A DNA stretch of 64,000 nucleotides, taken from positions 1 through 64,000 of IMG/VR virus record IMGVR_UViG_3300017792_000017, one strand, 5' to 3'. Below the pieces are notes generated by a model, which was given only the letters and a program-made list of their open reading frames with translations, had not been told where the DNA came from and searched no databases. Both the position numbers and the translations under genes were made by a program. The DNA comes from a virus. Every line of letters begins with the position of its first letter. Position 1 is the stretch's first letter. Below are positions 3,219 through 24,639 of this stretch, piece after piece.

Positions 3219-3293
3219 CGGCGTATGATGAAACTGGTATCATAGAAGACTTTTAATCTTCCTTTTCCGGATCGTACCCGGATGCGCCGACCA
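3219..3293 (+). tRNA. tRNA-Lys(UUU) with atypical T-loop
   Basis: Acceptor CGGCGTA/TGCGCCG, D stem ATGA/TCAT, anticodon arm GAAGA-CTTTTAA-TCTTC, T arm TCCGG-ATCGTAC-CCGGA, encoded ACCA. Confidence 0.85.
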
Positions 3294-3828: not shown

Positions 3829-3902
3829 ATCACTGTAGCTCATCCGGATAGAGCACAAGCCTTCTAAGCTTGGGGTAATTGGTTCGAGTCCAATCAGTGA
3901 TG
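3829..3902 (+). tRNA. tRNA-Arg(UCU)
   Basis: ATCACTG/CAGTGAT acceptor, GCTC..GGATAGAGC D arm, CAAGC-CTTCTAA-GCTTG, GGTTCGAGTCC; followed by CCT, so CCA is not encoded. Confidence 0.9.
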
Positions 3903-4050
3903 CCTAAGGCTTTTCCAATCGGAGCAGTATTCAAATGGAAACCAATCATGAAACTCAAGAACAGATTTGTACTGATGGTAATGCTGATGACAATGGCGAG
4001 TTGCGCTACGCAGCCCGCACCCGCATTCTTCGTGAAGGATACCGCTTCTT

Positions 4051-7198: not shown

Positions 7199-8356
7199 AT
7201 GTCACATAGTAAACTTTATCATGAAGTGGCTGAAATGTACGCAGCTACTTTTGGCAGTAAACAACTCGCAGTATCCACAGAAGAAAAGCAATACGACCTG
7301 GCTGTAGTCATTGGTCGTTTCGAACCTCTGCATGTAGGTCACCAGATTCTCCTGAACAAGGCATTCATGGTGGCTGACAAGGTACTGGTTCTTATCGGTT
7401 CTTCGCACGCTCCCCGCACTATCAAGAATCCGTTTACGTACGATGAACGTTCGCAGATGGTTATTCAAGCGGCTGGTACTTCGAACATTTTCACGGCTCC
7501 GCTTGTGGATAACCTCTACTCAGATGATGAGTGGGTTACTTCCGTGCAAAACGAAGTAGCAACTGTTCTCTTGGCAGGAAAGGGTTGGGCAGACAAAGAT
7601 GTAAAAAGCAAGGTTGCAATCGTCGGTAACAAGAAGGACGAAAGCTCATACTACCTTGATCTCTTCCCGCAGTACGATTACGTTGCAGTAGACGAAGTCA
7701 AGCTCGGCTTTGATGCTACAGCTATCCGTGAAGTAATCTTTGAGAAGCCTGGATTCATTGAGCTTCTCAAGAGTTTGGTTCCGGAGTACACTTTTAGCTT
7801 CATCAAGGAGTTCATCAAGACTCCGGAGTATCTACGTCTTGGACGTGAATACAAGATGGTACAGAAGTACAAAGACTCCTGGAAAGCAGCACCGTATGCA
7901 CCAACCTTTGTGACTGTCGATGCGATTGTCAAGAAGGCTGGCCATATTTTGATGGTGAAGCGTAAGGCTGCACCGGGAGAAGGACTCCTTGCATTACCTG
8001 GAGGATTCCTGGAACAAAATGAAAGGCTTGAAGATGCGGCGATCCGTGAATTACAAGAGGAAACTTCGATTGACCTCCCTAGAGGTCTTCTTAGCGGTAG
8101 TATGTCTGCCGGTGTTGTTTTTGATCATCCTGGCCGTAGTTTGCGTGGGCGCACTATTTCGCACGCTTTTCTTTTTGACCTGGATAAGTCGGACAAAAAG
8201 CCGGGGCTTCCTAAGGTAAAGGGTGGCGACGATGCAGTCGCAAGCACCGCTTTGCAAAAGGCTACAGACTGGTACGAGATCGACTATGTACTCAGTCACG
8301 CTGAACTGATCTTCGAAGATCACTCATCGATCATTCGCAAGATGCTTGGTATCTAA
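7199..8356 (+). CDS. nadM: Bifunctional NMN adenylyltransferase / Nudix ADP-ribose hydrolase (NadM-Nudix)
   Basis: GRFEPLHVGH (HxGH), NPFTYDER, Nudix box GGFLEQNERLEDAAIRELQEETS, C-terminal FEDH. Confidence 0.92.
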   Translation: MSHSKLYHEVAEMYAATFGSKQLAVSTEEKQYDLAVVIGRFEPLHVGHQILLNKAFMVADKVLVLIGSSHAPRTIKNPFTYDERSQMVIQAAGTSNIFTAPLVDNLYSDDEWVTSVQNEVATVLLAGKGWADKDVKSKVAIVGNKKDESSYYLDLFPQYDYVAVDEVKLGFDATAIREVIFEKPGFIELLKSLVPEYTFSFIKEFIKTPEYLRLGREYKMVQKYKDSWKAAPYAPTFVTVDAIVKKAGHILMVKRKAAPGEGLLALPGGFLEQNERLEDAAIRELQEETSIDLPRGLLSGSMSAGVVFDHPGRSLRGRTISHAFLFDLDKSDKKPGLPKVKGGDDAVASTALQKATDWYEIDYVLSHAELIFEDHSSIIRKMLGI

Positions 8357-8409
8357 AACAAAAGTCCCAGAAATAGATTCTGGGCATTCTAATTAACGAG
8401 GTGTTAATA

Positions 8410-9807
8410 ATGTCACAATTCAAAATCAATCCGCTTCTCAATACCGATTCATACAAGCACAGCCACTTCCTGCAATACCCGGCTGGTGCAACTGCTCTGT
8501 CTTCTTACGTAGAACCCCGTAAGGACAATAGCGGTTTCGGTATCACCCACGTAACTCCGTTCGGCCTTCAAGGCTACATCAAGGATCACCTTCTGACTCC
8601 GATTGCGCTTGACGACGTGATTGAAGCAGGACGTATCTGTAAGCTTCACGGAGAGCCGTTTGCAGAAGGCGCATTCCGTAAAGTGGTAGAAGTGTACGGA
8701 GGTCGTGCGCCTATCACGATCCGTGCTGTAGCTGAAGGTACGCAAGTGCCTATCAGCAATGTTATCATTGACGTCGAATGTCACGATCCCGAAATGCTTT
8801 GGATGGGTTCATTCTATGAAACGCAAATCCTTCGTGCGGCCTGGTTTGGTACCACAGTTGCGACGATCAGCCGTCACTGTAAAGAAATCATCTTCAAAGG
8901 ACTGGTCGATACGTGCGATAAGCCTCTTGACGAGCTTCCTTTTAAGCTTCATGACTTCGGTGCTCGTGGTGCTAGTTCTGCAGAAACTTCTGCTATTGCT
9001 GGTGCCGCACACTTGGTGAACTTCATGGGTACGGACACCATGCTCGGCATGGAGTACGCTCATCAATTCTACGGAGCAGAACGTGATTCTCTTGGGTTTA
9101 GCATCCCTGCTGCTGAGCATAGTACTATTACTAGTTGGGGGCGTTCAGGAGAAGCGGACGCATACCGTAATATGGCTGAGAAGTTCGGCAGTGGCCTTTT
9201 CGCAGTTGTCTCTGATAGTTACGACATCTTTAATGCTGTCAAAAACGTCTGGGGCGATACCCTTCGTGATTTTGTCCTTGCTTTGCCTGGTACTCTCGTT
9301 GTTAGACCTGATTCCGGAGATCCGGTGTCGGTTGTTAGGACGGTTGTTGGGATTCTCGCAGACAAGTTCGGATACGCGACGAACGGTAAAGGGTTCAAAG
9401 TCCTGAACAAGGTTCGTGTCATCCAAGGCGACGGTGTAAACCCTACCTCAATCGCAGCTATTCTCACGGCTCTGAAGATGGATGGTTTCAGTGCTGAGAA
9501 CGTTGCATTCGGTATGGGTGGTGCTCTTCACCAGAAGCTTGACCGTGATACGTTTGGTTTTGCAATGAAGGCTTCGGCAATTCAAATCGATGGTAAGTGG
9601 AATGACGTGTACAAGGACCCCGTCGCTGGTGGCAAGACTAGCAAGCGTGGTCGTCTGGCACTGGTCAGTGACGAAAGCGGTGAACTTACTACGATCCGTC
9701 GTGAAAATGCAATGGGTCGTGACGATCATCTCGAAGTCGTATACACTGGCGGTAAGCTCGTGAAGGAACTGACGTTCAACGAAGTTCGCAGGAACGCTGC
9801 AATCTAA
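8410..9807 (+). CDS. nadV: Nicotinamide phosphoribosyltransferase
   Basis: TDSYKHSH, LHDFGARG, SIPAAEHS, VVSDSYD, VRPDSGDP, IQGDG, FGMGG; ATG 8410 after GAGG. Confidence 0.95.
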   Translation: MSQFKINPLLNTDSYKHSHFLQYPAGATALSSYVEPRKDNSGFGITHVTPFGLQGYIKDHLLTPIALDDVIEAGRICKLHGEPFAEGAFRKVVEVYGGRAPITIRAVAEGTQVPISNVIIDVECHDPEMLWMGSFYETQILRAAWFGTTVATISRHCKEIIFKGLVDTCDKPLDELPFKLHDFGARGASSAETSAIAGAAHLVNFMGTDTMLGMEYAHQFYGAERDSLGFSIPAAEHSTITSWGRSGEADAYRNMAEKFGSGLFAVVSDSYDIFNAVKNVWGDTLRDFVLALPGTLVVRPDSGDPVSVVRTVVGILADKFGYATNGKGFKVLNKVRVIQGDGVNPTSIAAILTALKMDGFSAENVAFGMGGALHQKLDRDTFGFAMKASAIQIDGKWNDVYKDPVAGGKTSKRGRLALVSDESGELTTIRRENAMGRDDHLEVVYTGGKLVKELTFNEVRRNAAI

Positions 9808-18816: not shown

Positions 18817-19242
18817 ATGACTCTTTACGCACATCTTCAACAACTGCGGGTTGAAGCTCTGAAACTTGGTGATTCTTTTTCGTTTACTAAGCTTGGTACT
18901 GTCCTTGGGGAAGCCAAGCAAGTAGCTACGAAAAAAGAGAACCGTGACCCTACTGATGAAGAAGTAATTAGCATTGTCAAGAAGGGTCTTGAAGGCATTG
19001 CAGAAATGCTTGCGCATGAGAAGGATGATCTTAAGCGAGGCGCTCTCATTGCTGAACGCCAGCTTCTTCAAGGCTTCATGCCGACTCAGTTGTCAGAAAC
19101 TGAAATCAAGGTAATCATCGAGAATGCTGCACTGGATAACATCGGCAAGATCATGGCTATCTTCAAGAACAACTACGCAGGTAAATACGATGGAAAGCTT
19201 GTCTCAAAACTCGCTAACGAATTTCTATCAAGTAAGGTTTGA
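18817..19242 (+). CDS. GatB/YqeY domain protein
   Basis: TDEEVISIVKK, LQGFMPTQLSETEI, IGKIM, GKYDGKLVS. Confidence 0.8.
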   Translation: MTLYAHLQQLRVEALKLGDSFSFTKLGTVLGEAKQVATKKENRDPTDEEVISIVKKGLEGIAEMLAHEKDDLKRGALIAERQLLQGFMPTQLSETEIKVIIENAALDNIGKIMAIFKNNYAGKYDGKLVSKLANEFLSSKV

Positions 19243-19496: not shown

Positions 19497-20222
19497 ATGT
19501 CTAATCTTAAAGAAGAATGTCCTACACTTGACACCTCCAAAACGCGTCTTGTGTTCTTGGATATCGACGGAGTTTTGAACTCTGACAAGACTTTCATTCT
19601 TGCAGGGGCATGGCCTAACCTTGAAGTGGACTATGAAGCTGATATGGGCTACTTCGGAGGGCCGAGGGCTAAAGTTGTTAAAGCTCCGTATGTGAAGTAT
19701 CCCGAAGGCATTGATAAGTACGCAGTTGGGCTGCTTAACAAGCTCCTCGTTGCTACCAATGCTCATATCGTTGTCTCATCTACGTGGAGAGAAGGCGTTG
19801 ACATCTACAGTCTTAGGTTGGTGCTTGGCGCTATGGGTGTTGATCCTACTCGTGTTATAGGTAAGACACCTGAGTTCCGTGGTAATCGTGGAGAACAGAT
19901 ATTTGATTTCCTTCAAGGCATTAAAGAAAAACGTTACTACACAGGTCCAGACTTTTTCGTACAGAATGGAAGACTTATTCAGAGTCTATCTAAAGTACCT
20001 GTTACAGTCGAGTCATACGTAATTCTAGATGACATCAATGACTTTCTTCCGCAGCAAATGAAAGACGTTGTATTGACTGATGGGCGCGAAGGCTTGAGCC
20101 TTGCTGATACTTTGCTATGCGGGGCAGCACTCACTGGCAAAGACTTTGAATTGAATCATTTGATTCATGGTGAGGAATATCAAGGACGTATTCTCTGGAC
20201 TGAAAAAGAGAAGTATGAGTGA
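19497..20222 (+). CDS. HAD phosphatase of the 'Swiss Army Knife RNA repair' type
   Basis: VFLDIDGVLNS, IVVSSTWR, RGEQI, YVILDD, TDGREGL. Confidence 0.75.
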   Translation: MSNLKEECPTLDTSKTRLVFLDIDGVLNSDKTFILAGAWPNLEVDYEADMGYFGGPRAKVVKAPYVKYPEGIDKYAVGLLNKLLVATNAHIVVSSTWREGVDIYSLRLVLGAMGVDPTRVIGKTPEFRGNRGEQIFDFLQGIKEKRYYTGPDFFVQNGRLIQSLSKVPVTVESYVILDDINDFLPQQMKDVVLTDGREGLSLADTLLCGAALTGKDFELNHLIHGEEYQGRILWTEKEKYE

Positions 20223-20751: not shown

Positions 20752-20850
20752 GAAAAAGAATAAATCGCTTATAGTAGTATTCGACGGAGCGTATATATAG
20801 CTACGCTCCTTTCTGTTTTTTATCTCGGGAACAACAGAGGGCGATTCAAA

Positions 20851-21024: not shown

Positions 21025-21555
21025 CTGTGCATGGTGAGTAGGACATTTTCTCCTTCCCTTGATTGAGCAACCTGGGGTTATCCTACAGAATTGCTTTTTG
21101 AACCCCTTTTGGGGGCATGATGAAGTATAGAAGTAACGACAACGTTACTAGAAGTATGTAACATTCTTCGAAAGTTGTCTTCGCCTGCAGCGAAACCCAG
21201 GGACCGAGATGCTCTGGGTTCGAGAACAGCTCATCTAATATAGTTAACTATAAGTTATGAGCTGCAGGTGATGGACATCAAGCACCGCATGAGTTCATCA
21301 TGAACAACGACCTTCGGGTCGCACAGAGTTTGAAGTATCAAACTGGTTCAATAGCGATATCCGTTCTTTAGGGAAAGGGTTAAGTTGGAAGCCAGAGAGT
21401 ATCTGCAACAGTGCTCTACGTTGCTTTTCCGAAAGGCAAAGCAAAGACTCTACCTAGCTTGTAGCTAGGTAAAGCTAATTCTGGAGCTGTGGTACGACGT
21501 CGTCCTCTTGGCCAGGCACCCCTGGTTGGAAGAGACCGTCGTAGGTTCTGCACAG
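21025..21555 (+). ncRNA. Large (~530 nt) structured ncRNA, class unknown
   Basis: Terminal helix CTGTGCA/TGCACAG; nested helices 21116-21124/21294-21302 and 21182-21191/21261-21270; UUCG and GAAA tetraloops; strand inferred from neighbours. Confidence 0.6.
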
Positions 21556-21587
21556 AATGTGTTCAAGCTTATAGTTGTAAAAGTTTC

Positions 21588-21644
21588 GAGAGCCGTCGAA
21601 TTGGATTATCTGCCAAAAAATCTTCCAGTTCAAAATTCGCTTTC
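21588..21644 (+). ncRNA. Y-RNA-like unit 1 (short)
   Basis: GAGAGC-CG..GAATTGGA-TTATC...TCCAGTTC..GCTTTC. Confidence 0.65.
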
Positions 21645-21660
21645 AATAATTTAAGAAGTA

Positions 21661-21670
21661 ATGGTATAAT
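21661..21670 (+). promoter_or_regulatory. Promoter for Y units 2-8
   Basis: TTCAAT-17 nt-TATAAT with TG extension; unit 2 starts 7 nt downstream. Confidence 0.75.
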
Positions 21671-21677
21671 AACCTTA

Positions 21678-21742
21678 GTGAGCCGTTCTTATGTTGGGTT
21701 ATCAATTGGTGATTACTCCCCAGCATTATTCTTTTTGCTCAC
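21678..21742 (+). ncRNA. Y-RNA-like unit 2 (short)
   Basis: GTGAGC-CG...ATGTTGGG-TTATC...CCCAGCAT...TTTGCTCAC. Confidence 0.75.
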
Positions 21743-21796
21743 CCTCGCTTTAATCCTCGCATTGATTCTAAAGAGTCAGTGCCTGAATTAAAGTTC

Positions 21797-21928
21797 ATGG
21801 ACCGATAGAATGGTTTATCTAAACCCAAATCGCAAATTACAGGTTCGAGTCCTGTACTCCGCTGCAGTTGCGGGGTTGGTGAAATTGGTAAACACAGCGA
21901 TTCCAGATCCATTCGATTACTTGTCCAT
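21797..21928 (+). ncRNA. Y-RNA-like unit 3, YrlA type (permuted tRNA-Gly-like module)
   Basis: ATGGAC-CGA...TTGTCCAT; T arm ACAGGTTCGAGTCCTGT, looped acceptor ACTCCGC/GCGGGGT, then D arm. Confidence 0.85.
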
Positions 21929-21937
21929 TCCCATTTC

Positions 21938-22000
21938 ACGGGCCGTTCGATGCTAGGTTATCCCTCTTACTGATTCCCCTAGTTTCATTTCTTTGCCCGT
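21938..22000 (+). ncRNA. Y-RNA-like unit 4 (short)
   Basis: ACGGGC-CG...GCTAGG-TTATC...CCTAGT...TTTGCCCGT. Confidence 0.75.
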
Positions 22001-22010
22001 ATCAATTTTC

Positions 22011-22182
22011 AAACGAACCGAACGCATTAAGGGTTATCTACTATCGGAAAGTTAAACGACAGTCGTATCAGCAGTACTCGGAAACGAGAGATACTTCAAG
22101 AGGGTTAACATTGTTGTACTCTGCTTGAGCTAAAGCTAAGCTGGTGAATCCAGTATCTCCCTTGGCAAACATTTGTTCGTTT
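22011..22182 (+). ncRNA. Y-RNA-like unit 5 (long, non-tRNA module)
   Basis: AAACGAAC-CGA...AAGGG-TTATC...CCCTT...TTTGTTCGTTT with a ~120-nt insert. Confidence 0.7.
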
Positions 22183-22192
22183 TCTCAGTTTC

Positions 22193-22328
22193 GCTGAACC
22201 GCTTGTATTGGTTTATCTACTGTTAATAGAGAGGTCGAAGGTTCGAGTCCTTCTGTGGTTGCCCTACGGGTTGCCGCATAGCTCAGTTTGGTAGAGCGCT
22301 AAAAATTCCAGTACGCCTTTTGTTCAGC
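22193..22328 (+). ncRNA. Y-RNA-like unit 6, YrlA type (permuted tRNA-Asn(GUU))
   Basis: GCTGAAC-CG...TTTGTTCAGC; TCTA-CTGTTAA-TAGA, AGGTC, T arm, looped acceptor, GCTCAGTTTGGTAGAGC D arm. Confidence 0.88.
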
Positions 22329-22337
22329 TTCAATTTT

Positions 22338-22400
22338 GTGAGCCGTTTCGATTTGGATTATCCTTTTAAGATTTCCTCCAGATCACTTTCATTTGCTCAC
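22338..22400 (+). ncRNA. Y-RNA-like unit 7 (short)
   Basis: GTGAGC-CG...GATTTGGA-TTATC...TCCAGATC...TTTGCTCAC. Confidence 0.75.
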
Positions 22401-22408
22401 TACCTCTT

Positions 22409-22539
22409 TACGGGCCGTTAGTGTTAGATTATCACTATTCGGAAGTCGTGGCGTTGGTTCGAATCCAACTGCAGCCTTGAGGGTTGTATAGCTTAGCGGA
22501 TAGAGCACGTAAAATCTTCTAGCACGCCTTTTGCCCGTA
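22409..22539 (+). ncRNA. Y-RNA-like unit 8, YrlA type (permuted tRNA-Arg-like module)
   Basis: TACGGGC-CG...TTTGCCCGTA; T arm GTTGGTTCGAATCCAAC, acceptor TGCAGCC/GGTTGTA, D arm GCTTAGCGGATAGAGC. Confidence 0.85.
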
Positions 22540-22546
22540 TCCCCAT

Positions 22547-22924
22547 CATGACCTTTCGTATTTAACTTTGCAGTTTGGAAAGTGACTATAGAGTAACTCT
22601 GTAGGTATCAACTTCCCGCTTCCGTTGCGTACCACAAGACTCCGCTGCGCTACGTCTTGCGCTACTCCACTACAGCCGGAGATCCGCTGGGTCGCTTTAC
22701 AGCCCAGCATGAGGTCAGGTCATGACCGCAGTACCACTAGACTTACGTATCTCAAGCAGTTGTTAGATTGCTGGCTTAGAGTAACTCTAAGTTATAGCTT
22801 TCCGCTCTACGTCCTTCGGACTACGGCGGAGGAGATGATGAGCACGAGGAGCATCTCCAGGGCCCTGGTAACCAGGATCCGTAGATGTCTCAGCTCAGCA
22901 CCACATGTGGTAAGTTAGAAGTAC
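22547..22924 (+). ncRNA. Two paralogous ~180-190-nt structured RNAs (22547-22724 and ~22731-22924)
   Basis: Closing helices CATGACCT/AGGTCATG and GACTTAC/GTAAGTT; shared TAGAGTAACTCT hairpin (22589, 22777) followed by CTTYCCGCT. Confidence 0.55.
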
Positions 22925-22926
22925 CC

Positions 22927-22967
22927 GAAGGTCTGTTTCCATCTTGGATTCAGACCTTCTTTTTTTA
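22927..22967 (+). terminator. Terminator ending the ncRNA island
   Basis: GAAGGTCTG/CAGACCTTC stem followed by T8. Confidence 0.75.
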
Positions 22968-23007
22968 GTCGATTTAAACTTTGTTCCCTAAACTTAAGGA
23001 GCCTCAA

Positions 23008-24639
23008 ATGTCATTCAATACCCTCGCAAAGAATACCAATACCCGTACTGTTGCACGTACCACGCCACAGAATCGCCCGGCTGGTAACGCTCCGGTAGCT
23101 CAGGTCAAGAACAACGCTGGCGGCTTTGTATTTGAGATCTCTGGCCTTCAAAAGCTGGATCGATTCCTTATCATCGGCACGAGCGGTGGTACGTTCTACG
23201 CTAGCGAAAAGGACATCACGAAGCAGAACACAGATGAGGTCGTGAAGCTCATCAAGGCAAATGGCAAGGTTGTGGTTGATCGTGTGGTAGAGATCAGCCA
23301 AGCTGGCCGTGCCAAGAACAATGACTATGCGCTTCTGGTCATGGCTCTGGTCTTCACCCACGGTGACGTTGCAACCAAGATGTATGCGAAGGATAAGCTG
23401 AACCTCGTGGCTCGTACTGGCACGCACTTCATGCACTTCGTTGCATTCGCAAATGGTATGCGTGGTTGGGGCCGTTCGCTCAAGAACGTAGTTCAGAACT
23501 GGTATTCCTCAAAGGATACCGATAAGCTTGCGTTCCAGATCGTGAAGTACAAGCAACGTGACGGCTGGTCCCACAAGGACATCATGCGTCTGGCTCACGT
23601 CAAGCCTGGCACTGATCCGGTTCGTCAGAACCTGTACAAGTTTATCAACAAGGGTGCAGAGTCGCTGTCGCAAGGTGACCTCGTGCCTCAGCTTCTGATT
23701 GCTGCAGAGCAAGCCAAGACTGCAGATACGAAGACGTTGATTAAGCTGATCCAGGATTTCAAGCTCACGCATGAAATGATCCCGAATGAGCAGAAGAACG
23801 ACCCGAAGGTTTGGGAAGCTCTTGTGCCTCACATGGGTCTAGGTGCGCTGGTTCGCAACCTGAACAAGCTCACGGCAGTTGGTTTGATCAAGCCTTTCTC
23901 GGAAACGAGCAAGATTGTATCTGCCAAGCTCCACGACGTTGAAGCCATCCGCAAGGAACGTCTGCATCCGATGTCAATCGTAGTTGCGCAGAAGATCTAC
24001 GCGCAAGGCCGTGGCGATAAGGGTTCACTCGTATGGACTCCGGCCCGTACCATTGTGGCTGATCTGGAAGATGCATTCTACGTTTCGTTTGAAGCAGTAG
24101 AGCCGTCCGGTAAGAACATTCTGTTGGGCCTGGATGTATCGGGTTCAATGAGTGCTCCGATCAGCAATACGCCTCTGTTGAGCTGTGCTGAAGGTACGGC
24201 AATCATGGCTATGGTCACCGCTCGCACAGAGCCGTGGACTGAGATCCGTGGTTTCACGAGCGGCGCTAATGGCTTTAAGGATCTCGGGATCACATCCAAA
24301 GATACTTTGGCTACGGCGTGTGGTAAGGTTCGTGCGCACAACTTCGGTGGTACGAATTGTGCATTGCCGTTCGAGTATGCGCTTCAACATAAGTGGGACG
24401 TTGACGCTGTCTGTGTTTACACGGATAACGAAACGTGGTCTGGCGGCCAACACGTGTTCCAAGCGGTACGCAAGTATCGTCAGGGCATGAACAAGCCTGA
24501 AGCTAAGCTGATCACGGTCGGTATGGCTGTGAACAACTTCAGCATTGCTGATCCGACTGACCGCAATATGCTGGACGTGGTTGGTTTCGATACGGCAACT
24601 CCGAGGTTCATTTCGGAATTCATTGCTGGCAACCTGTAA
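23008..24639 (+). CDS. rsr: Ro60 / Rsr TROVE-vWA RNA-binding protein
   Basis: QVKNNAGGFVF..LDRFLIIGTSGGTFY, GWGR, VKYKQRDGWSHKD, MIDAS DVSGSM, TDNETW, IADPTD..MLDVVGFD; AAGGAG RBS before ATG 23008. Confidence 0.95.
   Translation: MSFNTLAKNTNTRTVARTTPQNRPAGNAPVAQVKNNAGGFVFEISGLQKLDRFLIIGTSGGTFYASEKDITKQNTDEVVKLIKANGKVVVDRVVEISQAGRAKNNDYALLVMALVFTHGDVATKMYAKDKLNLVARTGTHFMHFVAFANGMRGWGRSLKNVVQNWYSSKDTDKLAFQIVKYKQRDGWSHKDIMRLAHVKPGTDPVRQNLYKFINKGAESLSQGDLVPQLLIAAEQAKTADTKTLIKLIQDFKLTHEMIPNEQKNDPKVWEALVPHMGLGALVRNLNKLTAVGLIKPFSETSKIVSAKLHDVEAIRKERLHPMSIVVAQKIYAQGRGDKGSLVWTPARTIVADLEDAFYVSFEAVEPSGKNILLGLDVSGSMSAPISNTPLLSCAEGTAIMAMVTARTEPWTEIRGFTSGANGFKDLGITSKDTLATACGKVRAHNFGGTNCALPFEYALQHKWDVDAVCVYTDNETWSGGQHVFQAVRKYRQGMNKPEAKLITVGMAVNNFSIADPTDRNMLDVVGFDTATPRFISEFIAGNL

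What the first reader, a model, noticed from the sequence alone, without database searches (positions are those of the whole stretch)
21610..22443. Y-like units display different anticodon-like loops: possible decoy panel against anticodon nucleases
Seen: just after TTATC there are 7-nt loops resembling tRNA positions 32-38. Unit 1 CT-GCC-AA (21610-21616, Gly). Unit 2 TT-GGT-GA (21706-21712, Thr). Unit 3 AA-CCC-AA (21822-21828, Gly, lacks U33). Unit 4 CT-CTT-AC (21964-21970, Lys). Unit 5 act-AT-CGG-AA-agt (22043-22049, Pro). Unit 6 tcta-CT-GTT-AA-taga (22220-22226, Asn). Unit 7 atc-CT-TTT-AA-gat (22363-22369, Lys). Unit 8 act-AT-TCG-GA-agt (22437-22443, Arg). All eight triplets differ. Known: defence nucleases such as PrrC and PARIS AriB cut tRNA-Lys anticodon loops. 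Inference: Ro60-held RNAs could act as decoys for tRNases, or engage synthetases or modifying enzymes. Caveat: stems are only 2-5 bp and a U-NNN-R match can arise by chance; units 1, 6 and 7 (CU-NNN-AA) are the convincing ones.
Basis: partly seen in the sequence, partly recalled or inferred. Interest (0 to 1): 0.88.

Follow-up and report, generated by a model that had tools for sequence, protein, structure and literature searches.

The report
Anticodon-arm mimics on phage Y RNAs
A phage carries eight small Y-type RNA genes in front of its Ro60 gene, and three of them (not all eight) display a hairpin built like a tRNA anticodon arm, a design that recurs next to Ro60 in many phages and bacteria and may bait proteins that read or cut tRNA anticodons.

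Summary
The eight 7-mers are at the stated coordinates, but each was read in a freely chosen register (offsets 4-9 from TTATC). The loose U33/R37 rule is met at chance level (7/8 vs 5.2 expected, P=0.16), and eight different triplets are expected by chance (P about 0.63).

Comparison with relatives separates the units:
- Units 6, 7 and 8 carry real anticodon-arm mimics.
- Unit 7 (AUC-CUUUUAA-GAU) is invariant in relatives and recurs beside Ro60 genes only 43-46% identical. Its loop equals that of the phage's own tRNA-Lys(UUU).
- Units 6 and 8 are YrlA-like tRNA mimics. Each keeps a 3-bp stem with a 7-nt loop at the right distance from the T arm (39/39 Watson-Crick pairs, compensatory changes, U33 and A38 nearly constant).
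- Units 1-4 are not anticodon-like. Unit 5 has a hairpin whose loop varies from 5 to 7 nt.

Across phages and bacteria the short class has the consensus C-U-(U/G)-(U/C)-U-A-A, mostly Lys, Asn, Arg and Ser loops. In one cyanobacterium it lies between RtcB and Ro60.

The decoy function is untested. A related idea for YrlA is already published. Published YrlA models lack an anticodon loop, so this is a new variant of a known kind. This scan has noted the same design on other DNA.

The parts
21587..21645 (+). Y unit 1: short hairpin Y RNA. Its apical loop UUAUC-UGCCAAAAAAUCU is not anticodon-like.
   Evidence: Orthologs read GGCCAAAAAUCU (L001/L002), UCCAAAAAUUACUCC (L003) and GCCAAAAUUGAC (L010). 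The conserved part is GCCAAAA, the 'U33' is G in the nearest relatives, and no closing stem exists.
21677..21743 (+). Y unit 2: short hairpin Y RNA with the conserved loop motif AAUUGGUGA.
   Evidence: The motif is kept in L001, L003, L004/L010 and (as AAUUGGAUGA) L022, but without a conserved stem or register. The AUC/GAU closure seen in the window gives the loop AAUUGGU, which lacks U33.
21796..21929 (+). Y unit 3: YrlA-like tRNA mimic (T arm 21839-21855, closed acceptor, D arm). Its 'anticodon stem' is made by the 5' and 3' strands (AAUCGC/GCGAUU).
   Evidence: RF02553, 15.9 bits, partial; MFE; orthologs keep aaNCCCAA followed by the stem strand and have no hairpin.
21937..22001 (+). Y unit 4: short hairpin Y RNA with a variable apical loop (a 9-nt loop closed by AUC/GAU in the window only).
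   Evidence: Orthologous loops are UAUCUUACAGGCAAAC (L001) and UAUUGCUAAGAAACCU (L003, L004).
22012..22181 (+). Y unit 5: Y scaffold carrying a module of about 120 nt that is not tRNA-like. The small ACU/AGU hairpin after UUAUC has a loop of variable length.
   Evidence: Loops are AUCGGAA (7, window), UCGACU (6, L001), AUGGA (5, L003) and AAGCCAA (7, L004/L010). The stem is absent in L022.
22193..22328 (+). Y unit 6: YrlA-like tRNA mimic that keeps an anticodon arm.
   Evidence: RF02553 43.6 bits, E=8e-8, below the gathering score of 69. The tRNA model RF00005 scores 26.4 bits on 22197-22261, cut-off 29.
22216..22230 (+). Unit 6 anticodon-arm mimic UCUA-CUGUUAA-UAGA. The loop has the tRNA-Asn(GUU) pattern.
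   Evidence: The stem covaries in orthologs: UUC-CUGUUAA-GAA (L003/L008) and UCC-AUUAUCA-GGA (L004, L010, L022). Seven nt separate the inner 3-bp stem from the T stem at 22237.
22337..22401 (+). Y unit 7: short hairpin Y RNA (like the published YrlB/Yrn2 type) whose tip is an anticodon stem-loop mimic.
   Evidence: RNAalifold on 21 homologs gives a covarying 7-bp lower stem, GGG/CCC in the upper stem, and AUC/GAU closing a 7-nt loop.
22360..22372 (+). Unit 7 anticodon stem-loop mimic AUC-CUUUUAA-GAU. The loop is identical to that of the phage's own tRNA-Lys(UUU).
   Evidence: Invariant in L001, L003, L004 and L010. Also present in L024 and L025 (Ro60 44-46% identical). Variants are CAUUUAA (L022) and CUUCUAA (L026). 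tRNA-Lys sequence.
22409..22539 (+). Y unit 8: YrlA-like tRNA mimic that keeps an anticodon arm (T arm 22453-22469).
   Evidence: RF02553 22.3 bits, partial. RF00005 17.9 bits, with ACU-AUUCGGA-AGU aligned as the anticodon arm.
22434..22446 (+). Unit 8 anticodon-arm mimic ACU-AUUCGGA-AGU.
   Evidence: L023 has ACC-AUUCGGA-GGU (a compensatory change at the closing pair). L001 has ACU-UUUGGGA-AGU. L003 and L022 have ACU-UAUGGGA-AGU. Six nt separate it from the T stem.
23008..24639 (+). Ro60 (Rsr) gene, the presumed protein partner of the array.
   Evidence: Pfam TROVE 1e-35 and vWA_Ro60 4.5e-54. 40-45% identical to annotated 'Ro-like RNA binding protein' genes of actinobacteriophages.
22927..22972 (+). 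Hairpin followed by a U run, which closes the non-coding RNA region just before the Ro60 ribosome-binding site.
   Evidence: Read directly and conserved in all relatives. The consensus terminator scan did not call it, because its loop exceeds 8 nt.
3219..3293 (+). Phage tRNA-Lys(UUU), anticodon loop CUUUUAA.
3829..3904 (+). Phage tRNA-Arg(UCU), anticodon loop CUUCUAA. Short Y units of other phages display the same loop.

Best explanation
The region is an array of eight Y RNA genes that serve the phage Ro60 encoded just downstream. Each unit has the Ro60-type handle: a terminal stem with RRCCG, an upper stem, then the conserved UUAUC. Above UUAUC each unit carries a different effector module.

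In three units the module is an anticodon-arm mimic. Unit 7 is a plain hairpin whose tip, AUC-CUUUUAA-GAU, copies the tRNA-Lys(UUU) anticodon stem-loop. Units 6 and 8 are circularly permuted tRNA mimics (T arm, closed acceptor stem, D arm). Unlike published YrlA, they keep a 3-bp/7-nt-loop hairpin at the anticodon-arm position.

My inference on structure: nucleotides 42-43 pair with the two nucleotides behind the D arm, so a 5-bp anticodon stem is completed and the Ro60 handle branches from its 5' strand.

My inference on mechanism: Ro60 stabilises these RNAs and presents the anticodon loops as baits or docking handles for proteins that read tRNA anticodon loops. The most likely targets are host anticodon nucleases, which they would inhibit as competitive mimics. 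I put that sub-reading at about 0.3 on its own. Next most likely are tRNA repair or modification enzymes. Units 1-5 carry other modules and are not part of an anticodon panel.

Shown here: the handle, the hairpins, their conservation and covariation, and the link to Ro60. Inferred: expression, Ro60 binding, and any bait function.
For: Handle and Ro60 link:
- Eight RRCCG..GRTTATC units lie upstream of a TROVE + vWA_Ro60 gene.
- Orthologous arrays occur in seven related contigs.
- The lower stem covaries in 21 homologs.

Unit 7:
- The loop is invariant in relatives and recurs next to Ro60 genes 43-46% identical.
- A loop-unconstrained IMG/VR scan gave 29 validated units closed by AUC/GAU. Loop length was 7 nt in 20, 8 in 7 and 9 in 2. 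Frequencies were C32 14/20, U33 16/20, U36 14/20 and A37 16/20.
- With only CU..AA fixed, position 36 was U in 18 of 21 distinct validated units. The triplets were UUU 7, GUU 5 and UCU 2, with GCU, UGU, CAU and CUU once each among the seven single triplets.

Units 6 and 8:
- In 13 family members the 3-bp stem gave 39/39 Watson-Crick pairs, with 2-3 pair types per position. Slid controls gave 13-17/39.
- U33 is present in 8 of 9 distinct loops and A38 in 8 of 9. The spacer to the T stem is 6-7 nt in 12 of the 13 members and 5 nt in the other.
- The tRNA covariance model aligns these hairpins as anticodon arms.

Unbiased survey:
- Among 78 distinct units from Ro60-seeded loci, the best hairpin after UUAUC has a 7-nt loop in 22, against 7.5 expected (maximum 15 in 300 shuffles).
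- U33 + R37 + A38 occur together in 9, against 0.3 expected.

Context:
- The phage's only tRNAs, Lys(UUU) and Arg(UCU), have the displayed loops.
- Ten validated units in bacterial MAGs were found, nine of them beside Ro60. One lies in an RtcB-Y-Ro60 arrangement.
- Hughes 2020 (PMC7790460) proposes that YrlA acts as a competitive inhibitor of an anticodon nuclease.
Against: - There are no expression, end-mapping or binding data.
- The mini-stems are only 3 bp. Single-sequence folding gives them low probability for units 6 and 8 (closing-pair probability 0.09 and 0.01).
- Unit 7's AUC/GAU stem is invariant, so it cannot show covariation.
- The anticodon frame is not universal. U33 is A in UAUGGGA (L003, L022) and in CAUUUAA (L022). 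Position 37 is C in AUUAUCA.
- Some distant tRNA-like units have 6-nt loops (L014, L026) or no hairpin.
- The short class is restricted mostly to (U/G)(U/C)U. That pattern could be a protein-binding sequence motif rather than a free 'anticodon'.
- The same class sits in bacterial chromosomes, so it is not specifically a phage counter-defence device.
- The 145-kb record shows no RtcB or RNA ligase. The host and its nucleases are unknown.
- Counts include related sequences and are not independent events.
Confidence: 0.5

Rival explanations
1. One reading: all eight units form a deliberate panel of different anticodon loops, held by Ro60 as decoys against a range of tRNA anticodon nucleases.
For: Eight units have different sequences after UUAUC. 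YU-NNN-RA is enriched in some register (6/8 vs 1.2). Arrays in relatives hold several anticodon-type units with different triplets, for example four or five in L023.
Against: Units 1-4 have no closing stem, and their 'U33/R37' is not kept in orthologs. Unit 3's 7-mer lies in an internal loop. Unit 5's loop length varies from 5 to 7 nt. The loose criterion is at chance level (P=0.16). Eight distinct triplets are expected by chance (about 0.63).
Confidence: 0.07
2. Effector tether as in the Ro60-Y RNA-PNPase (RYPER) machine. The loops are single-stranded pyrimidine-rich handles that recruit PNPase or another host RNA-binding protein, and the resemblance to anticodon loops is incidental to that binding.
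For: D. radiodurans Y RNA tethers Ro60 to PNPase. Thermus phage phiLo Ro60 and its two Y-like RNAs form complexes with host PNPase (PMC12135203). [quoted passage not shown] The short class varies mainly as (U/G)(U/C) inside a fixed CU..UAA frame.
Against: The frame matches tRNA rules closely: a 7-nt loop, U33, U36-A37-A38, and G36-G37 in unit 8 relatives. In units 6 and 8 the hairpin sits at the exact anticodon-arm position of a full tRNA mimic. A generic single-strand handle would not need a fixed 7-nt loop (20 of 29 units).
Confidence: 0.2
3. Evolutionary leftovers. Units 6 and 8 arose by capture of tRNA genes, and unit 7 arose by deletion of such a unit. On this view the anticodon hairpins are relics, kept only for folding stability, with no reader of the loop.
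For: The loops equal those of real tRNAs: CUGUUAA for Asn, CUUUUAA for Lys, and UUUGGGA as I recall for E. coli tRNA-Pro(UGG) (from memory, unchecked). The modules keep T, D and acceptor features.
Against: Stems are kept by compensatory changes while the loops keep U33 and A38 across Ro60 lineages only 40-80% identical. Unit 7's loop is invariant while its flanks change, and it recurs in distant phages and bacteria. Relics without a reader should drift in loop length and sequence.
Confidence: 0.12
4. Chance resemblance: there is nothing anticodon-like here beyond what short hairpins in AU-rich loops give.
For: The stems are very short. The loose test is not significant.
Against: Enrichment of 7-nt loops and of U33 + R37 + A38 over shuffles, covariation, hits of the tRNA model, and deep conservation.
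Confidence: 0.04

Closest known systems
YrlA, the tRNA-like bacterial and phage Y RNA (Rfam RF02553; Chen et al. 2014, PMC4201824; Wang et al. 2018, bioRxiv 10.1101/312249)
   Same: Encoded next to Ro60. Has a 5'/3' handle with a GGUCCGA/GNCGAA-like motif. The module is a permuted tRNA mimic with a T arm, a loop-closed acceptor stem and a D arm. Units 3, 6 and 8 hit RF02553.
   Different: The hits are below Rfam's gathering score (43.6, 22.3 and 15.9 bits against 69). Published YrlA 'lacks the anticodon loop', and its anticodon stem runs into the Ro60 handle. Units 6 and 8 have a separate 3-bp/7-nt-loop hairpin 5' of nucleotides 42-43, so the handle appears to branch from the anticodon stem. 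Chen 2014 mentions a less-conserved stem-loop 'V' upstream of the T arm, read as a variable arm. Here the order of elements places the hairpin at the anticodon-arm position instead.
YrlB / Yrn2 type short Y RNAs (Chen et al. [quoted passage not shown]
   Same: Unit 7, and units 1, 2 and 4, are hairpins of about 60-67 nt encoded with Ro60. Unit 7's loop is pyrimidine-rich.
   Different: In the papers I could read, those loops are not described as anticodon stem-loop mimics. I could not obtain the YrlB or Yrn2 sequences to compare. Here the tip has the consensus AUC-C-U-(U/G)-(U/C)-U-A-A-GAU.
D. radiodurans Yrn1 (Chen et al. 2014)
   Same: A Y RNA that can be drawn with a potential 'anticodon arm'.
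   Different: Yrn1's arm has a 5-bp stem and a 6-nt loop, and its tRNA-like orientation differs. Here the loops are 7 nt with U33, and the module follows the YrlA orientation.
Metazoan Y RNAs (Rfam RF00019)
   Same: A Ro60 handle with RRCCG(A) in the 5' strand and a pyrimidine-rich 3' strand. A GGGUUAUC...CCCC upper stem also resembles human Y RNAs, but that comparison rests on my memory of hY1, hY4 and hY5 and was not tested.
   Different: No RF00019 match, even at E up to 10. The units are much shorter and lie in a tandem array.
Phage answers to tRNA-cutting defences: phage-encoded tRNAs that escape or replace cleaved host tRNAs, and T4-type tRNA repair
   Same: Same battleground, the anticodon loops of tRNA-Lys and others. 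The window phage carries its own tRNA-Lys(UUU) and tRNA-Arg(UCU).
   Different: Those are functional tRNAs or repair enzymes. Here the anticodon loops are mounted on a Ro60 handle and cannot be charged, because the acceptor is closed or absent.

Membership tests
Y RNA (Ro60 partner RNA) | Encoded adjacent to a Ro60/Rsr gene | tested here: met
   The array at 21587-22539 lies 470 nt upstream of Ro60 at 23008-24639. The same arrangement holds in 7 related contigs and many distant ones.
Y RNA (Ro60 partner RNA) | Terminal 5'/3' stem carrying the conserved Ro60-contact motif (GGUCCGA in animals, GNCGAA in bacteria) | tested here: met
   All eight units have RRCCG at the top of a 6-7-bp terminal stem. 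The stem covaries in 21 homologs of unit 7, with 6 of its 7 lower-stem pairs showing double changes.
Y RNA (Ro60 partner RNA) | Physical binding to, and stabilisation by, Ro60 | not testable with these tools
   Needs immunoprecipitation or EMSA.
YrlA (Rfam RF02553) | Score at or above the Rfam gathering threshold (69 bits) | tested here: not met
   Unit 6 scores 43.6 bits (E=8e-8), unit 8 22.3 bits and unit 3 15.9 bits. There was no hit at the gathering threshold.
YrlA (Rfam RF02553) | T arm, loop-closed acceptor stem and D arm in permuted order | tested here: met
   Units 3, 6 and 8: GGTTCGA T arms, closed acceptor stems and D arms aligned by the model.
YrlA (Rfam RF02553) | Anticodon stem continuous with the Ro60 handle, with no anticodon loop (Wang 2018) | tested here: not met
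   Met by unit 3. Units 6 and 8 carry a separate hairpin with a 7-nt loop.
tRNA anticodon stem-loop (as a mimic) | 7-nt loop | tested here: met
   Met by units 6, 7 and 8 and their orthologs. In the validated short class, 20 of 29 have 7 nt. Not met by units 1-4. Variable in unit 5.
tRNA anticodon stem-loop (as a mimic) | U33 and purine 37 (A38 also common) | tested here: met
   Units 6/8 family: U33 in 8 of 9 distinct loops, R37 in 7 of 9, A38 in 8 of 9. Short class: U33 16/20 and A37 16/20. Exceptions are listed in the Against line.
tRNA anticodon stem-loop (as a mimic) | 5-bp stem | tested here: inconclusive
   The contiguous stem is 3 bp in most units (4-6 bp in a few). A further 2 bp can form between nucleotides 42-43 and the two nucleotides behind the D arm: CG/CG in 9 members and AG/CU in window unit 6. 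I read this by eye. In unit 7 homologs UUAUC/GAUAA gives up to 5 bp.
tRNA anticodon stem-loop (as a mimic) | Correct position relative to the variable loop and T arm | tested here: met
   Six to seven nt lie between the 3-bp stem and the T stem in 12 of 13 members (7 expected for positions 42-48). RF00005 aligns the hairpins as the anticodon arm.
Decoy or inhibitor of anticodon nucleases | Binding to, cleavage by or inhibition of an anticodon nuclease; protection of phage growth | not testable with these tools
The host and its defence genes are unknown.

The most novel reading that the evidence does not exclude
Ro60-Y RNA particles are a general, exchangeable display platform for tRNA anticodon arms. 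A widespread but undescribed class of Y RNAs, in phages and in bacterial Ro60 or RtcB loci, presents the anticodon loops of ANN-decoding tRNAs (Lys, Asn, Arg, Ser; frame C32-U33-N-N-U36-A37-A38). It does so to inhibit, sense or recruit the enzymes that cut, repair or modify tRNA anticodon loops during phage-host conflict.
Probability: 0.3. Interest if true: 0.85.

Novelty: new variant of a known kind. Interest (0 to 1): 0.6.

Why it matters
What bacterial and phage Ro60-Y RNA particles do is still largely open. The only worked-out case is the PNPase tether. A class of Y RNAs whose variable module is an anticodon arm names a concrete set of candidate partners: anticodon nucleases such as PrrC, RloC, colicins E5 and D, and PARIS AriB; RtcB; and the t6A, queuosine and m1G enzymes. 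It also gives simple constructs for testing them, namely the 65-nt unit 7 with swapped triplets, with and without Ro60.

If the loops bait anticodon nucleases, this would be an RNA-based counter-defence that complements phage-encoded tRNAs. It would also tie the Ro60-RtcB operons of bacteria to the same conflict.

For this particular finding the claim must be narrowed from eight units to three.

Tried and rejected
1. Rfam's alignment of unit 6 pairs UACUG (22218-22222) with CAGUA in the 3' strand. I rejected it because CAGUAC pairs with GUAUUGG upstream of UUAUC in all unit 6/8 relatives, and that pairing is the Y upper stem.
2. Single-sequence MFE folds support only unit 7. I did not use them as evidence for or against units 6 and 8, because 3-bp stems are below what the energy model favours.
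3. Megablast of the locus against cultured phages found nothing. By protein, Ro60 matches 371 phage records at under 60% identity.
5. RtcB and RNA_ligase families were searched in the 145-kb record and not found. The record is about 79% complete.
6. RtcB is present in 4 of 5 bacterial genomes that hold the short class. Adjacency was shown only for L177. Other loci have an HNH endonuclease (L152, L179, L198) or a NYN-domain gene (L194) near Ro60, and I did not follow these.
7. MAFFT misaligned two members of the unit 6/8 family, so I counted pairs with my own anchored script rather than with the count of structure pairs.
8. The automated 'best hairpin' picker misses some true 3-bp stems, for example L008 unit 6, so its counts are conservative.
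9. The argument that 'all eight triplets differ' was rejected as uninformative (P about 0.63).
10. The review PMC10870794 is not held. I could not obtain YrlB or Yrn2 sequences for comparison.
Full report
WHAT IS THERE

The window is part of a 145-kb IMG/VR virus record. At 23008-24639 (+) it encodes a Ro60 protein with TROVE (1e-35) and Ro60 vWA (4.5e-54) domains. This protein is 40-45% identical to 'Ro-like RNA binding protein' genes of many actinobacteriophages. The large terminase is closest to those of Salmonella phage Arash and Vibrio phages, at about 43-46% identity.

Upstream of Ro60, between a terminator-like hairpin at 20786-20809 and a conserved hairpin plus U run at 22927-22972, lies an ORF-poor stretch. 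It holds eight tandem units that share the 5' strand RRCCG-N(8-14)-GRTTATC. Each unit closes with a 6-7-bp terminal stem and an upper stem that ends just below UUAUC. This is the Y RNA design. Rfam's YrlA model finds units 6, 8 and 3 below threshold (43.6, 22.3 and 15.9 bits against a gathering score of 69).

THE OBSERVATION AS WRITTEN

All eight 7-mers are at the stated coordinates. They begin 4, 7, 7, 6, 9, 7, 5 and 8 nt from the start of TTATC, so the register was chosen unit by unit.
- With six registers allowed, 'U at loop position 2 and a purine at position 6' is met by 7 of 8 units. Shuffles of the same tails give 5.2 (P=0.16), and 58% of the 157 other TTATC sites in the window also meet it.
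- The stricter YU-NNN-RA (6/8 vs 1.2, P=0.0003) and CU-NNN-AA (3/8 vs 0.5, P=0.01) are enriched. The units are paralogs, so these P values overstate independence.
- Eight different triplets out of 64 are expected by chance with probability about 0.63.
- In minimum-free-energy folds only unit 7's 7-mer is a closed hairpin loop (closing-pair probability 0.76). For units 6 and 8 the closing pair has probability 0.09 and 0.01.

RELATIVES DECIDE

Ro60-based searches returned seven related arrays: L001 and L002 (93% Ro60 identity), L022 (81%), L003 (78%), L004 (75%), L010 (73%) and L023 (65%). About twenty distant arrays (34-46%) also came back.

Unit by unit:
- Unit 1: the conserved part is GCCAAAA. 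The supposed U33 is G in L001 and L002. There is no stem.
- Unit 2: the motif AAUUGGUGA is conserved, but without a conserved closing stem.
- Unit 3: a YrlA-like unit whose 5' strand AAUCGC pairs with GCGAUU behind the D arm.
- Unit 4: the loop differs in every relative.
- Unit 5: an ACU/AGU mini-hairpin with loops of 7, 6, 5 and 7 nt. The stem is absent in L022.

These five units give no support for anticodon mimicry.

UNIT 7

UUAUC-CUUUUAA-GAU is invariant in L001, L003, L004 and L010, while the stems around it change with compensation. The same tip occurs in L024 and L025 (Ro60 44-46% identical). Single-letter variants are CAUUUAA in L022 and CUUCUAA in L026.

Three whole-collection scans widened this picture.
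- With only CU..AA fixed, 21 distinct validated units (upper stem of at least 5 bp, lower stem at least 6 of 7) gave UUU 7, GUU 5 and UCU 2, with GCU, UGU, CAU and CUU once each among the seven single triplets. Position 36 was U in 18 of 21 although it was not fixed.
- With the loop left free and lengths of 5-9 nt allowed, 29 validated units had loops of 7 nt (20), 8 nt (7) and 9 nt (2). The 7-nt loops read C32 14/20, U33 16/20, position 34 U or G 18/20, position 35 U or C 19/20, U36 14/20, A37 16/20 and A38 10/20.
- In bacterial genomes, ten validated units were found, nine of them beside Ro60 genes. The hosts are MAGs of Anaerolineales, Capsulimonadaceae, Armatimonadales, Alphaproteobacteria, Acetobacteraceae, an Oscillatoriaceae cyanobacterium, Candidatus Brocadia and Polyangiaceae. 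In the cyanobacterial contig the order is RtcB, Y unit (CUUUUAA), Ro60.

RNAalifold on 21 homologs recovers the covarying terminal stem, the GGG/CCC part of the upper stem, and AUC/GAU closing the 7-nt loop. Many homologs read GAUAA after the loop, which gives a UUAUC/GAUAA stem of up to 5 bp.

The loop of unit 7 is letter for letter that of the phage's own tRNA-Lys(UUU). CUUCUAA is the loop of its tRNA-Arg(UCU). These are the only two tRNAs in the record.

UNITS 6 AND 8

Both are permuted tRNA mimics with a T arm, a loop-closed acceptor stem and a D arm. Between UUAUC and the T arm each has a small hairpin.
- Unit 6 orthologs: UCUA-CUGUUAA-UAGA (window), UUC-CUGUUAA-GAA (L003), UCC-AUUAUCA-GGA (L004, L010, L022).
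- Unit 8 and relatives: ACU-AUUCGGA-AGU (window), ACC-AUUCGGA-GGU (L023), ACU-UUUGGGA-AGU (L001), ACU-UAUGGGA-AGU (L003, L022).
- More distant units have the same design: CCUU-CUGCUAA-AAGG (L015), CUUUUU-CUGCUAA-AAAAAG and ACU-CUAUUAA-AGU (L023), ACA-AUGCUAA-UGU (L024), and AUCUCU-AUAUCCC-AGAGGU (L011).

Over 13 members the three loop-proximal pairs are Watson-Crick in 39 of 39 cells, with two or three pair types at each position. Sliding the 3' partner by 1-2 nt gives 13-17 of 39. U33 is present in 8 of 9 distinct loops and A38 in 8 of 9. The distance to the T stem is 6-7 nt in 12 of the 13 members and 5 nt in L023_2245, as expected for positions 42-48.

The tRNA covariance model aligns these hairpins as anticodon arms: 26.4 bits on 22197-22261 and 17.9 bits on 22413-22477.

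By eye, the two nucleotides after the mini-stem (CG in nine members, AG in window unit 6) can pair with the two nucleotides that follow N26 behind the D arm (CG, or CU in window unit 6). That would complete a 5-bp anticodon stem whose 5' strand is interrupted by the Ro60 handle. This three-way junction is an inference and rests on one compensatory case.

The pairing that Rfam's YrlA alignment suggests for unit 6 (UACUG with CAGUA) is wrong. CAGUAC belongs to the upper Y stem and pairs with GUAUUGG.

UNBIASED COUNTS

Among 40 distinct Y-linked tRNA-like units, the best hairpin before the T arm has a 7-nt loop in 9, against 2.9 expected from shuffles.

Among 78 distinct units from loci found through Ro60 alone, the best hairpin after UUAUC has a 7-nt loop in 22. 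Shuffles give 7.5 on average and at most 15 in 300 trials. U33 + R37 + A38 occur together in 9, against 0.3 expected.

Related sequences inflate these numbers. Some distant units have 6-nt loops (L014, L026) or no hairpin.

WHAT IS KNOWN
- Chen et al. 2014 (PMC4201824) described YrlA next to Ro60 in more than 250 bacteria and phages. They noted a less-conserved stem-loop 'V' upstream of the T arm, read as the variable arm. [quoted passage not shown]
- Wang et al. 2018 state that YrlA 'lacks the anticodon loop' and that its anticodon stem is made of nt 15-27 and 83-93.
- Hughes et al. 2020 (PMC7790460) showed that the Salmonella rsr-yrlBA-rtcBA operon is induced by tRNA halves made by anticodon-loop cleavage. 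They suggested that the YrlA tRNA-like domain, which is not a substrate of that nuclease, could act as its competitive inhibitor.
- A Thermus phage Ro60 with two Y-like RNAs forms complexes with host PNPase (PMC12135203).

I found no paper that describes Y RNAs with a 7-nt anticodon-type loop. The library is incomplete, and a key review is not held.

This scan's earlier notes report the same design in other phages and in a planctomycete Ro60-RtcB locus. I saw them only after my own analysis. They agree with it but are not independent evidence.

HOW IT PROBABLY WORKS

Shown here: a Ro60-linked array of Y-type RNAs, three of which carry conserved anticodon-arm mimics.

Inferred: Ro60 binds the common handle and stabilises the RNAs. 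The anticodon arms are then offered to proteins that read tRNA anticodon loops.
- The leading candidate partners are host anticodon nucleases, with the RNAs acting as competitive mimics. I put this at about 0.3. It fits the published YrlA suggestion, the RtcB-Y-Ro60 locus, the phage's own tRNA-Lys and tRNA-Arg, and an RNA-repair-associated HAD_SAK_2 gene at 19497-20222.
- Recruitment of tRNA repair or modification enzymes is the next candidate. The U36-A37-A38 frame matches what I recall as the determinant for t6A37, and G36-G37 in unit 8 relatives matches that for m1G37. Both statements come from my own knowledge and were not tested.
- A PNPase-type tether with only incidental resemblance, and relic status, remain possible.

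The restricted (U/G)(U/C)U pattern of the short class, and its presence in bacterial chromosomes, caution against a purely phage counter-defence reading.

VERDICT

The array is a known kind of thing: Y RNAs with phage Ro60. The anticodon-arm modules are a variant not described in the literature I could search. Only units 6, 7 and 8 qualify.

Noticed in passing
window 21025-21555: An ORF-poor stretch of about 530 nt directly upstream of the Y array is conserved block by block in all related contigs (for example GTAACGACAACGTTACTAGAAG, AGTTTGAAGTATCAAACTG, CAGAGAGTATCTG.AACAGTGCTCTACG, and a CCAGCTnnnGCTGGG hairpin). It looks like a large structured RNA that travels with the array. No Rfam hit.
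   Followed up: no
window 22547-22924: Two further non-coding elements lie between unit 8 and Ro60. Each holds GACCTTTCGTAT or GACTTACGTAT and a TAGAGTAACTCT(A) hairpin. They are conserved in L001, L003, L004, L010, L022 and (diverged) L023. They lack the RRCCG..UUAUC handle.
   Followed up: no
L004:3120-3560 and L010:2620-3060: In two relatives unit 8 is missing. In its place, after unit 7, is an AT-rich insert with a small cysteine-rich ORF, possibly a homing endonuclease. I did not run Pfam on it. Small HNH endonuclease genes also sit beside Ro60 in three bacterial loci (L152, L179, L198).
   Followed up: partly
L001:3427-3540; L003:3440-3550; L022:2741-2851; L023:2108-2214: A ninth unit type is absent from the window. 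It is a Y handle followed by a hairpin with a 9-10-nt loop and a covarying stem (CUUC/GAAG, CCGC/GCGG, CCCU/AGGG). A second UUAUC and a T-arm-like hairpin (AUUGG-UUCGAUU-CCAAU) follow in L003 and L022. L001 and L023 have a different T-arm-like hairpin and no second UUAUC.
   Followed up: partly
window 7199-9807: An NMN adenylyltransferase-Nudix fusion (7199-8356) and a NAMPT/NAPRTase-family gene (8401-9807). As I recall from the literature, this NAD+ salvage pair is used by phages against NAD-depleting defences. That link was not checked here.
   Followed up: no
window 19497-20222 and 18817-19242: A protein with the HAD domain of 'Swiss Army Knife' RNA repair proteins (PF18143, 1e-18) and a YqeY-like protein lie 1.4-2.8 kb upstream of the array.
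   Followed up: no
L015, L016, L018, L026, L028 (regions upstream of Ro60): In several distant phages the Y array directly adjoins a cluster of ordinary tRNA genes (many T arms preceded by normal anticodon arms). Y units and tRNAs appear to form one RNA gene neighbourhood.
   Followed up: no
window 21699-21712 (unit 2) and L003:2497-2515: The conserved loop motif (UC)AAUUGGUGA after UUAUC resembles, from my memory of human Y1 RNA (GUUAUCUCAAUUGAUUG), the start of the hY1 loop. I did not test this. It could be coincidence.
   Followed up: no
L194:2529-3854: A NYN-domain (RNase) protein is encoded next to a Ro60 gene that has a short anticodon-type Y unit, in a Capsulimonadaceae MAG.
   Followed up: no
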